Source of the DNA: Escherichia coli
GTDB lineage: Bacteria; Pseudomonadota; Gammaproteobacteria; Enterobacterales; Enterobacteriaceae
Reading direction: 5' to 3' (one strand)
Assembly: GCF_045037415.1 (NCBI RefSeq)
Contig: NZ_CP173438.1
DNA: 64,000 bases
The position numbers and the translations under genes are program-made. Below are positions 29,806-32,800 of this stretch, piece after piece; the first letter of the stretch is position 1, and every line of letters starts with the position of its first letter. The notes below the pieces were generated by a model. It was not told where the DNA came from, made no database searches, and saw nothing but the letters and a program-made list of their open reading frames with translations.

Positions 29806-32800
29806 TCAGCTAATCGTGATGCCTGCAGTGGCTTTCTTCATCACCACAACCAGCAAATCGCTGATACTTGCTGTGGGATACCAGTTATTTACCAGCCATG
29901 CTGACACCGAAAACTCCAGTGTCATGTGACCGTGACCGGCAGGCATATCAATAACACCACTGTAAATCAGCGTATTATCCAGCGCGGTACGGTTATAAAT
30001 TTCAGCACCGTTTTTCCGCACTATCAGACGGCATGAGGAGTAAATATCAGTATGCTCTTTCTCATGTTTAGCGCCGCTGAATGCCACCGCCGGAATAACA
30101 ATCTGCCGGTCAAACGGCTGATCGTCATAAACCCTGACGGTAATGGTTCCTGATGGCCACCGCTCCGGTGCACGGGAGTCCCGGGGGAAAGCTTTGCCCA
30201 CTGTTTTAACGAGATCGCCTTCAATCTGGTTCGCGGACAATTTTCCCAGAACCCGACAGTTCTCGTTAATCGTGACGTTGTTGAGCGTCCCGGAGTTCGC
30301 ATTCACGTTACCGCTGATATCGGCATTTTTCGCCGTCAGCCGCCCGTCCGGTGTCAGGGAAAATGCCGGAGGATTACCGCCGCTGGTAATGGTGGGAGCC
30401 GTCAGATATTTCAGGAACACTTCATTCATAAATATCTGATCGCCCTGACCAACAAACATCGGCTTTGTGTTGCCATTCGCAGGATTAATCATCGCAATCC
30501 TGTCTGCCGCCAGCAGCACCTGACTCTGCATTCCTGCTGGCGTATTCTCAATACCGGCACCGATACCCGCAATATAAAGGCGTCCGTCCTGCATCTGCTG
30601 CAGTTTCACGGCCCACATGCTGTTCAGGTTATTATTTGTATCAACCTGAACTTTCTGTATCTGCTGGATTGCCGCACTCTGATTTTCCAGTTTTTTATTG
30701 ACGGTCTGCGTGATTTCATTGCTGACATTCGTAATGGACGTCCTGATTTCAGCCAGGTCCGGCGCAAGCTGACCGTTATCAATCTGCGTCCACAGCTCCT
30801 GGGCCAGATGTGTTTTCCCGATTTCTCCTTTGAAAAAATCCAGGTAACCTTCCGCATCATCGCTCGCCCGACCGACAGCCTCCACGAATGCCGATTTGCC
30901 AACAGTATTCACACTGCGGATATAAAAATAATAATCATGGCCCGGTTTGATATTGATACTGGCAGCTATCCAGTACAGCGCCGAGCCAAGATAGCGGGCT
31001 GCGGTTTCAACCTGCCTGATATCCGCAATCCGCTTTTCCGAGAACCAGAACTCAAACTGTACCGTCGGGTCATAAACGGCAAGATGTGGCGTTGCGGTTA
31101 TCTGAAAATAGCCCGGCGTCAGCTCAATCCGCGACGGTGCTGCCGGTGCGGCAATCCGGAAGGTGGTGGTGGCAGGTTCACCCTGCTGGCCATAGCTGTT
31201 TATCGCCCGCACCGTCAGGGTGTATTCCCCGAGCGGCAGGCCGCTGAAACGGTGCTCCGTGTCTGCGGTGATGGCGGTGGTCACCAGTCTGGCATCCGTT
31301 CCCTTACCACTGGTCAGGCGCAGACTGAAGCGCACACCCTTCACCACCCGCGGCGTGTCCCATTTCGCCTGCGCCAGATACTGGCCGTCAGCTGCGCTCA
31401 CCTCCACCGTCAGGTGCTGCACTGCCGGTGGGATGACGCTGTTCAGGGAACCTGACTGCGGCTCAAAGCGGGCACCGTTATCCACGATGGCTTCTTTTTC
31501 CGGTACGTGCTGCACCGCCGTGATGGCAAAGGTGCCGTCCGTGTTTTCCCGGATGGAGACACAGCGGAACAGGCGACGGCGCAGTGACGGCAGGGAGAGT
31601 CCCCACACCCCGTATGTCTCCACACCATCAGGCAGGGTACTGACCTGTATCCGGTCCGGCGCGGGGTGTGCGGTGATGTCCACACTCACCGGCTTACCGC
31701 TGCCGTTAATCAGGTTCACCGCCGATGTACCTGTCTCCGGCAGGGTAACCTCACGGTCCAGCGTCAGGGTGCGGGTGGCAGCATCAATGGACAGGACACG
31801 TCCGCCGGTCAGGGTCCCGGCATAGTCATTATCACAGATTTCAATAATGTCACCGGGTGTGTGCCGCAGCCCCTGAACCCGAGCGTGAAATCCACCGTCT
31901 GCGTTTCCAGCAGTTCGGTCTTTATCACCCACAGTCCGGCACGGTGGGCCTGACCGCGGCTGGTACAGCCGAACGCGTCCATCTTCAGCAGGTTGCGTCC
32001 GTAGCGCAGTATGGCTTCCGGGTCTTCCACCAGTTCCGTGGAGGTCTGCCAGCCGTTCTGCGGGTCGGTGTAATTCACCTCCACCGCCGTGTGCCGGTCC
32101 TTCAGGGCACTGAAGCTGTAGCGGAATCCCACGCCGTTATCATCCACCACCACATCGCTGTTGGTGTACGGCCACACCACATCCGACGGGCGGTCCTGAA
32201 CGAACGTCAGCGTCTGACCGTTCCATACCGGCATACAGCGCATCGCAGAGCAGAAATCACTGAGAACGTCCCACGCCTTACGCTGTTGTGCCAGGTACGC
32301 ATTAAAGGTCATCCGCGGCTCGGTCCCCCCGAAACCATCCGGGACCGTCTGGTCGCAGTACTGCCCGATGGCATACAGCGCCCACTTGTCCACATCCGCC
32401 GCCCCCAGACGTTTTCCCATGCCGTAGCGCGGGTGAGTCAGCATGTCCCACAGACACCAGGCCGGGTTGTTGCTGTATGCCGGTTTCAGACTGCCGTCCC
32501 AGATACCACTATACGTGCGTTTTTCCGGGTCATAGTTTGACGGCACCTGGATGATGCGACCGCGGATATGGTAGTTCACCGTCATCTGCTGGCCGCCGAA
32601 CTGCTCCGCATCCACCTGCAGCCCCACAATGGCCGTGTTCGGGTAGCACTGTTTCACATCGATGATTTCGGTGTATGACGACCACAGCGTCTTATTCTGC
32701 AGCTGGTCCGTGGTGCTGTCCGCCGTCTCCCTGACCATCCGGATGTTAAAGGGCCGGGGAGGCAGATTATCCAGAATCACCGAGGCCAGGAACTGTGAGG

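What the first reader, a model, noticed from the sequence alone, without database searches (positions are those of the whole stretch)
31860..31890. Frameshift in tail host-specificity gene J
Two ORFs that together cover the full length of lambda-type J overlap in different frames. The switch maps to a short C/G run near 31876, where ...TQTVDFTLG continues as FRGCGTHPV in one frame and [19 protein letters not shown] in the other. Either J is inactivated, so the prophage cannot make infectious tails, or this is a homopolymer sequencing error.
Basis: seen in the sequence. Interest (0 to 1): 0.4.

Follow-up and report, generated by a model that had tools for sequence, protein, structure and literature searches.

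The report
False frameshift at a methylated site
The break in the prophage tail-tip gene J is real in the deposited sequence, but it is almost certainly a sequencing artefact at a DNA-methylation site, not a dead gene, so the finding is ordinary.

Summary
Lambda-type J lies on the minus strand at 29806-33278 and is split into two overlapping ORFs. Compared with the intact allele of closely related E. coli ST131 genomes, the window lacks exactly one base, between 31876 and 31877.

The missing base is not in a homopolymer. It is the G:C pair carrying the 5-methylcytosine of an Eco31I site (GGT[m5C]TC, GAGACC on the + strand). ST131 methylates this motif on both strands (Forde 2015).

- The only other indel between the window and the ST131 references also sits on a GGTCTC site (61254-61261, +2 bases).
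- In a series of near-identical 'Esc' assemblies, the same J site reads -1 in 13 and +1 in 15.
- In Esc11, two other GGTCTC sites show C>T, and a 'frameshifted' fecA is GGTCTC>GGTTCTC. Esc11 carries both Eco31I methylases intact.
- More than 1,500 genomes have this 73-base stretch one base longer. In the four I aligned or fetched, the extra base is that C and J is uninterrupted.
- Restoring the base gives a 1157-aa protein identical to WP_000514710.1, a full-length lambda TipJ.

Best reading (about 0.88): a methylation-motif-linked long-read (nanopore-type) consensus error. A real loss of J is unlikely (about 0.07). Interest is low, apart from a warning about false pseudogenes.

The parts
29806..33278 (-). 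Whole lambda-type tail tip / host specificity gene J (gpJ, TipJ). It is 3473 nt as written and 3474 nt when intact.
   Evidence: RefSeq annotates the same gene as 'phage attachment tail tip protein J', 'frameshifted' in E18, Esc11 and Esc5 and intact (WP_000514710.1) in JJ1887 and 4/1-1. The restored protein matches NCBIfam NF049904 lambda_TipJ at 2365 bits (cutoff 1950) over residues 1-1157 and is 69% identical to lambda J over its full length.
31809..33278 (-). 5' ORF of the split J (489 aa). J-homologous up to ...TVDFTLG, then 21 out-of-frame codons to a stop.
   Evidence: matches lambda_TipJ profile positions 1-474.
29806..31932 (-). 3' ORF of the split J (708 aa from an incidental GTG). 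J-homologous from about residue 16 (QGLRHTPGD...).
   Evidence: matches lambda_TipJ profile positions 465-1163.
31875..31879 (.). Remnant GAACC of an Eco31I recognition site (intact GAGACC on +, GGTCTC on -). The missing G:C pair, between 31876 and 31877, is the m5C position of GGT(m5C)TC.
   Evidence: Methylation of this motif in ST131: Forde et al. 2015, PMC4659465.
61254..61261 (+). Second corrupted Eco31I site in the window. It reads GGTTCTCT where 4/1-1 and E18 read GGTCTC (+2 bases). It is intergenic, just beyond hokD.
   Evidence: Esc11 reads GGTTTC and Esc5 reads GGTTCTC at the same place.

Best explanation
The J gene of this ST131 lambdoid prophage is most likely intact in the organism. 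The one-base gap in the deposited sequence is a consensus error of a methylation-sensitive long-read method, probably Oxford Nanopore sequencing of native DNA.

Proposed mechanism: ST131 clades A and C carry the Eco31I restriction-modification system. It methylates GGTCTC on both strands, as GGT(m5C)TC and GAG(m6A)CC. The two modified bases sit on adjacent base pairs and distort the signal. In some sequence contexts, here CG-GGTCTC, the basecaller or polisher then miscalls the methylated C as T, drops it, or adds a base. Dropping it in J produces an apparent frameshift, and annotation pipelines call the gene a pseudogene.

Shown here: the position of the error on the motif, its recurrence at other copies of the motif, disagreement between near-identical assemblies, and the presence of the methylases in one affected genome.

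Inferred, because no reads or metadata were available: the sequencing platform of the window, and that the signal disturbance is the cause.
For: 1. Apart from the one missing base, the window's J is identical to the intact allele. Restoring the base gives a protein identical to WP_000514710.1.
2. The missing base is the m5C position of an Eco31I site. EC958 (ST131) encodes M1 and M2 Eco31I homologues; 100% of its GAGACC sites are m6A-methylated and GGT(m5C)TC methylation is predicted (PMC4659465).
3. Across 64 kb, the only indels between the window and the ST131 references that are not private to one reference lie at two GGTCTC sites, 31876 and 61254-61261. The 16 motif copies cover about 96 of 64,000 nt, so the chance of both events landing there is roughly 2e-6 (my arithmetic).
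4. The same J site reads -1 in 14 complete genomes (E18 plus 13 'Esc' strains) and +1 (GGTTCTC) in 19 (15 further 'Esc' strains plus 4 unrelated ones). Nearly all the Esc chromosomes are 5,156,475-5,156,542 bp and fall on both sides. Over 33 kb, Esc11 and Esc5 differ only at three GGTCTC sites.
5. Esc11 also shows C>T at the m5C position of two other sites. Its 'frameshifted' fecA is GGTCTC>GGTTCTC. Elsewhere it is 100% identical to EC958 over 16.3 kb.
6. Esc11 carries both methylases intact (WP_001295726.1 and WP_001295727.1). The locus is present in 634 of 5426 genomes, including the ST131 genomes that match the window at 100%.
7. Of the 16 motif copies, the 3 corrupted in any assembly are exactly the 3 preceded by CG (1 in 560 by chance). 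That fits a k-mer-context basecalling effect.
8. Methylation-induced nanopore errors are documented, including an ambiguity motif RACC/GGTY that fits GA[G]ACC/GGT[C]TC (PMC11610573; PMC11610603). Nanopore data detect GGTCTC/GAGACC methylation in E. coli ATCC 25922 (PMC12679398).
Against: No reads, platform or assembly metadata were available for the window or for the E18 and Esc records, so the technical cause is inferred from its pattern. The published methylation-linked errors I read are mostly substitutions (C>T, G>A) rather than one-base indels. Three apparently independent sources (the window, E18 from China, 13 Esc assemblies) share the identical -1 form, which is also what common descent from a true mutant would give. 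The fecA site is preceded by CC rather than CG, so the context rule is not strict. The window itself does not contain the Eco31I locus, so its presence in the source genome is inferred from lineage identity.
Confidence: 0.88

Rival explanations
1. A genuine one-base deletion has inactivated J in a sublineage of ST131. The prophage could then no longer make adsorption-competent tails.
For: The -1 allele is written identically in the window, E18 and 13 Esc assemblies. The prophage shows other decay or insertions: lom is split by ISEc12 in every ST131 genome examined, and the tape measure gene is split by ISEcp1-blaCTX-M-15 in JJ1887.
Against: Near-identical Esc assemblies carry +1 rather than -1 at the very same position, and none of the 28 Esc records found by the two allele searches has the intact form. 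The window's only other indel is on the same 6-bp motif. Real frameshifts would be expected to scatter along a 3.5-kb gene rather than hit one methylated base in 33 genomes.
Confidence: 0.07
2. A homopolymer-length sequencing error in the neighbouring G/C runs.
For: The site is flanked by GGG and GGGG. E18 has a true homopolymer-type deletion elsewhere in J, C5 to C4 at J nt 3093.
Against: The flanking runs have the same length in the window and in the intact alleles. The only edit that converts one into the other is loss of the C between two T's. No homopolymer discrepancy separates the window from the ST131 consensus over 64 kb; the T8/T9 difference at 18868 is private to JJ1887.
Confidence: 0.02
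3. Eco31I sites are real mutational hot spots, through m5C deamination or repair of restriction nicks. On this reading the J and fecA frameshifts would be true, rapidly arising and reverting variants.
For: The C>T changes at the m5C position in Esc11 are the type expected from 5-methylcytosine deamination. All changes are on the motif.
Against: Deamination does not give +1, +2 or -1 indels. It would require several independent mutations in 33 kb between assemblies that are otherwise identical, whereas the older ST131 assemblies fetched or aligned here have all the sites intact.
Confidence: 0.02
4. Programmed ribosomal frameshifting or another recoding event joins the two J ORFs.
For: Lambdoid tail operons do use programmed frameshifting, in G/GT (established knowledge). 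The two ORFs overlap.
Against: More than 1,500 genomes carry this 73-base stretch one base longer, and in the four genomes aligned or fetched, including lambda, J is a single ORF. The junction GGGTTCAGG is not an X XXY YYZ slippery heptamer. A +1 variant of the same site also exists.
Confidence: 0.01

Closest known systems
Methylation-induced Oxford Nanopore basecalling and consensus errors in bacterial genomes (Lohde et al. 2024, PMC11610573; Liu et al. 2024, PMC11610603)
   Same: The errors are confined to particular short motifs and are strain-dependent according to the methylases carried. Replicate assemblies differ at those positions and the rest of the genome is accurate. The published ambiguity motif RACC/GGTY fits GA[G]ACC/GGT[C]TC.
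   Different: The published cases I read are chiefly purine/purine or pyrimidine/pyrimidine substitutions. Here the same position also yields -1, +1 and +2 indels that create false pseudogenes. The responsible system (Eco31I in ST131) and the CG-GGTCTC context were not named in those papers. The platform of the window is not known.
Eco31I type IIS restriction-modification system of E. coli ST131 (M1.EcoMI and M2.EcoMI; Forde et al. 2015, PMC4659465)
   Same: The recognition sequence is GGTCTC/GAGACC, with m5C on one strand and m6A on the other. It is encoded on GI-leuX in ST131 clades A and C. The genes were found here in EC958 and Esc11 with identical protein accessions.
   Different: The system is not in the window. 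It is invoked as the source of the modification, not as the feature under study.
Bacteriophage lambda J (gpJ, central tail fibre / host specificity protein; NCBIfam NF049904)
   Same: The restored protein is 69% identical to lambda J over its full length, has the same gene order (tape measure, M, L, K-like peptidase, I, J, lom), and scores above the family cutoff.
   Different: As written in the window, the gene is in two frames. It is 25 residues longer than lambda J and has a diverged C-terminal receptor-binding end.
True pseudogenisation of tail genes in cryptic lambdoid prophages
   Same: The appearance is the same: a frameshifted J next to an IS-disrupted lom.
   Different: The lesion is on a methylation motif, it varies between replicate assemblies, and it is absent from the older ST131 assemblies fetched or aligned here.

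Membership tests
lambda TipJ / gpJ (NF049904) | Full-length match to the family profile above the curated cutoff | tested here: met
   The restored sequence scores 2365 bits against a cutoff of 1950, residues 1-1157 on profile positions 1-1163. The two fragments as written score 1092 and 1256 bits, each below the cutoff.
lambda TipJ / gpJ (NF049904) | Position in a lambda-like tail module (tape measure, M, L, K, I, J, lom) | tested here: met
   RefSeq annotation of the colinear regions in 4/1-1, Esc11, Esc5 and E18.
lambda TipJ / gpJ (NF049904) | A single uninterrupted reading frame | tested here: not met
   The window has two overlapping ORFs. The frame is uninterrupted in JJ1887, 4/1-1 and lambda.
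Methylation-linked long-read consensus error | The error lies on a motif known to be methylated in the lineage, at or next to the modified base | tested here: met
   The missing base is the m5C position of GGT(m5C)TC (PMC4659465).
Methylation-linked long-read consensus error | The error recurs at other copies of the same motif and is otherwise absent | tested here: met
   Window 61254-61261, Esc11 at 47554 and 61254, Esc5 at 61254, and Esc11 fecA. There are no other non-private indels in 64 kb.
Methylation-linked long-read consensus error | Replicate or near-identical assemblies disagree at the site | tested here: met
   13 Esc assemblies read -1 and 15 read +1.
Methylation-linked long-read consensus error | The cognate methyltransferase genes are present in the affected genome | tested here: inconclusive
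   Both are present and intact in Esc11. The window does not include GI-leuX, so for its own genome this is inferred from 100% identity to ST131 genomes that carry the locus.
Methylation-linked long-read consensus error | The assembly derives from native-DNA nanopore reads without short-read polishing | not testable with these tools
   No reads or assembly metadata were accessible.
Homopolymer indel error | The length change lies within a run of identical bases | tested here: not met
   The lost C lies between two T's, and the flanking G runs are unchanged.
Programmed ribosomal frameshift | A slippery sequence, and conservation of the two-frame layout in relatives | tested here: not met
   There is no X XXY YYZ heptamer at the junction. 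J is a single ORF in the relatives I aligned, lambda included, and more than 1,500 genomes carry the stretch one base longer.

The most novel reading that the evidence does not exclude
The doubly methylated Eco31I sites could be real hypermutable positions in ST131. They would throw off +1, -1 and C>T variants at high rate, so that J, fecA and other genes containing CG-GGTCTC switch on and off within a clone. That would be a methylation-site-driven form of phase variation.
Probability: 0.03. Interest if true: 0.65.

Novelty: not a real feature. Interest (0 to 1): 0.12.

Why it matters
The biological content is ordinary: this is a normal lambda-type J gene. The practical point has some use. In ST131 and other E. 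coli carrying Eco31I (634 of 5426 complete genomes), a subset of GGTCTC sites appears to be systematically miswritten in some recent complete assemblies.

This produces false 'frameshifted' pseudogenes in RefSeq. J is affected in at least 33 genomes, and fecA in Esc11. It would also produce false SNPs and indels in outbreak or within-host evolution comparisons. Anyone scoring prophage intactness, pseudogene load or micro-evolution in these lineages should mask or re-polish these sites.

Tried and rejected
- rejected by direct alignment.
- **Programmed frameshift:** rejected because J is a single ORF in the relatives aligned, lambda included, and the junction has no slippery heptamer.
- **Inherited true deletion:** made unlikely by the +1 allele at the same site in sibling assemblies.
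- **Finding the Eco31I locus in EC958:** I looked first at the start of the chromosome, as the old locus tags EC958_0008-0010 suggested, and then in the hsd/mcr immigration-control region. It was in neither place. The paper places it on GI-leuX, where I found it.
- **Finding the locus in Esc11:** the top rows of the locus search did not list the Esc or E18 records, so I located it in Esc11 by synteny. I did not check E18 or the other affected genomes.
- **Literature search:** a search for GGTCTC together with nanopore error terms found nothing relevant.
- **Source of the window:** not identified. No complete RefSeq genome matches 39001-64000 perfectly, because of the unique +2 at 61254.

Full report
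**1. What is in the sequence**

The reported site lies inside a lambda-type tail tip gene J on the minus strand, at window 29806-33278.
- The ORF listing shows two overlapping minus-strand ORFs: 31809..33278 (489 aa) and 29806..31932 (708 aa).
- The observation and its coordinates are therefore correct.

**2. The window and the intact allele**

The window is a stretch of E. coli ST131 chromosome (topA, the trp operon, then a lambdoid prophage). Many ST131 genomes match window 1-25000 at 100%.
- A 1-kb query across the site matches 14 complete genomes exactly.
- It matches several hundred ST131 genomes at 99.9% with one extra base.
- RefSeq annotates the gene as 'phage attachment tail tip protein J'. 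It is flagged 'frameshifted' in E18 and Esc11 and is intact (WP_000514710.1, 3474 nt) in JJ1887 and 4/1-1.
- The window gene (3473 nt) differs from the intact allele by one missing base at J nt 1403. Intact ...CTC GGG TCT CAG GGG CTG... (TLGSQGL) becomes ...CTCGGGT-TCAGGGGCTG....
- On the + strand, a G is missing between 31876 and 31877.
- Putting the base back gives a 1157-aa protein identical to WP_000514710.1.
- That protein matches NCBIfam lambda_TipJ end to end, above its cutoff.
- It is also 69% identical to lambda J over its full length; lambda reads TVDFSVGAEGLRHVPGD at this point.

**3. Not a homopolymer**

The G runs on either side have the same length in both alleles. The lost base is the C between two T's.

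**4. The site is an Eco31I site**

The intact sequence contains GGTCTC (GAGACC on the + strand). Forde et al. 2015 (PMC4659465) report the following for the ST131 reference strain EC958:
- It carries homologues of the Eco31I type IIS restriction-modification system, 100% identical in amino acid sequence, on island GI-leuX.
- 100% of its GAGACC sites are m6A-methylated (GAG(m6A)CC).
- The partner enzyme is predicted to make GGT(m5C)TC.
- The system is present in ST131 clades A and C.

The base pair missing from the window is exactly the m5C position, next to the m6A on the other strand.

I located the locus in EC958: M1 is WP_001295726.1, M2 is WP_001295727.1 and the endonuclease is WP_000781649.1. 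It occurs in 634 of 5426 complete E. coli genomes, including the ST131 genomes that match the window perfectly.

**5. The same motif is miswritten elsewhere**

I compared the whole 64 kb with JJ1887 and 4/1-1, and about 33-41 kb with Esc11, Esc5 and E18.

Differences between the window and these references:
- The J site.
- A second GGTCTC site at 61254-61261, which the window writes as GGTTCTCT (+2).
- Differences private to a single reference: a SNP at 13890 and a T8/T9 run at 18868 in JJ1887, and two SNPs in 4/1-1. One search shows that the window's version of the first 25 kb is the common one.

How the other assemblies read the motif copies:

| Site (window coordinate) | Window | Esc11 | Esc5 | E18 |
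|---|---|---|---|---|
| J site, 31875 | GAACC (-1) | GAACC (-1) | GAGAACC (+1) | GAACC (-1) |
| 47554 | GGTCTC | GGTTTC | GGTCTC | GGTCTC |
| 61254 | GGTTCTCT (+2) | GGTTTC | GGTTCTC (+1) | GGTCTC |

- Esc5's J is also annotated 'frameshifted'.
- Esc11 and Esc5 differ from each other only at these three motif copies across 33 kb.
- The region has 16 motif copies, covering about 0.15% of the bases. The chance that the window's two independent discrepancies both fall on them is of the order of 2e-6 (my arithmetic).
- The three copies corrupted in any assembly are exactly the three preceded by CG (1 in 560 by chance). This looks like a sequence-context effect of a basecaller, not mutation.

**6. 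Population picture**

- The exact -1 allele is in 14 of 5426 complete genomes: E18 and 13 'Esc' strains.
- The +1 allele is in 19: 15 further 'Esc' strains plus A1.S1.126, 446, 447 and UID2309220027.
- More than 1,500 genomes carry this 73-base stretch one base longer. In JJ1887, 4/1-1 and EC958-like genomes the motif reads GGTCTC there.
- Nearly all the Esc chromosomes are 5,156,475-5,156,542 bp long, so they are near-replicates. They nevertheless split 13 to 15 between two different wrong lengths at one position. A heritable mutation does not behave this way; an ambiguous signal resolved one way or the other by a consensus caller does.

**7. Further tests on an affected genome**

- Esc11 carries both Eco31I methylases intact. 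Its endonuclease gene is truncated by a resistance-gene insertion.
- Its fecA is annotated 'frameshifted'. The frame change maps to GCC GGT TCT CTC G, that is GGTCTC with an inserted T. Removing that T restores ...LLPLAG LSFSAFAAQ....
- Away from such sites, Esc11 is 100% identical to EC958 over 16.3 kb. The assemblies are accurate except at this motif.

**8. Link to known artefacts**

- Methylation-induced nanopore errors in bacterial assemblies are documented. They are strain-specific and motif-bound, and they vary between replicate assemblies.
- Lohde et al. 2024 list an ambiguity pattern RACC/GGTY (PMC11610573). This fits GA[G]ACC/GGT[C]TC.
- Liu et al. 2024 describe C>T and G>A miscalls at modified sites (PMC11610603).
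- Nanopore methylation calling detects GGTCTC (5mC) and GAGACC (6mA) in E. coli ATCC 25922 (PMC12679398). That strain carries the same locus.
- I could not access reads or metadata, so the platform of the window and of the E18 and Esc records remains an inference.
- The papers I read emphasise substitutions rather than indels.

**9. Verdict**

The frameshift is real in the text of the sequence. It is most probably not real in the organism. I put about 0.88 on a methylation-motif-linked consensus error and about 0.07 on a genuine deletion. The remainder is spread over a homopolymer error, a real mutational hot spot at the motif, and recoding.

If J is intact, the tail module of this prophage is complete apart from the ISEc12 insertion in lom, and lom is not needed for tail assembly (established knowledge of lambda). 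The finding is ordinary as biology. It is useful only as a caution about false pseudogenes and false variants at Eco31I sites in ST131-like genomes.

Noticed in passing
window 61254-61261: A second Eco31I site is miswritten in the window (GGTTCTCT instead of GGTCTC), just beyond hokD. It is intergenic, so no pseudogene call results. Esc11 and Esc5 show other wrong versions here, and E18 is intact.
   Followed up: yes
window 21422-24540: A 3.1-kb tail-fibre segment bounded by about 32-nt imperfect inverted repeats (21422-21453 and 24509-24540) is inverted in the window relative to JJ1887, Esc5 and E18. It holds oppositely oriented tail fibre C-terminal and assembly genes. The adjacent recombinase gene is annotated as a fragment, so inversion may be driven in trans.
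   Followed up: partly
window 26863-29738: The lom gene downstream of J is split by an IS21-family element, ISEc12 (istB 26863-27612, istA 27624-29165). The same insertion is present in every ST131 genome examined.
   Followed up: partly
window 42685-43278: A tandem array of 162-nt units (3.3 copies, 95% alike, in frame at 54 codons) lies inside the gene annotated as phage portal protein, which is unusually long at 861 aa.
   Followed up: no
L014 (Esc11, NZ_OZ369470.1) 8920-18375: In Esc11, a resistance block (ISEcp1-blaCTX-M-15, a Tn3 fragment, IS26, aac(6')-Ib-cr, blaOXA-1, a catB fragment) is inserted into the Eco31I locus. It truncates the restriction endonuclease gene and leaves both methylases intact.
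   Followed up: no
L013 (Esc11) 29704-32029: fecA is annotated 'frameshifted' in Esc11. The shift is GGTCTC>GGTTCTC at codons 26-28, the same motif-bound error as in J.
   Followed up: yes
L004 (JJ1887, NZ_CP014316.1) 21621-28109: In JJ1887, the tape measure gene of this same prophage is interrupted by ISEcp1-blaCTX-M-15. It is a chromosomal copy of the ESBL gene sitting inside a tail gene. The window's tape measure gene (35985-39227) is intact.
   Followed up: no
L009 (E18); equivalent to window 30183: E18 has a second one-base loss in J, in a C5 run (J nt 3093). This one is a true homopolymer-type discrepancy and is absent from the window.
   Followed up: partly
window about 56600-57650, minus strand (by colinearity with L006 6082-7131): The prophage encodes its own DNA methyltransferase (WP_000024331.1), next to tRNA-Ile and tRNA-Arg genes and downstream of the antiterminator. 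It is probably one of the prophage-borne, weakly transcribed methylases described for EC958. I did not examine its specificity.
   Followed up: no
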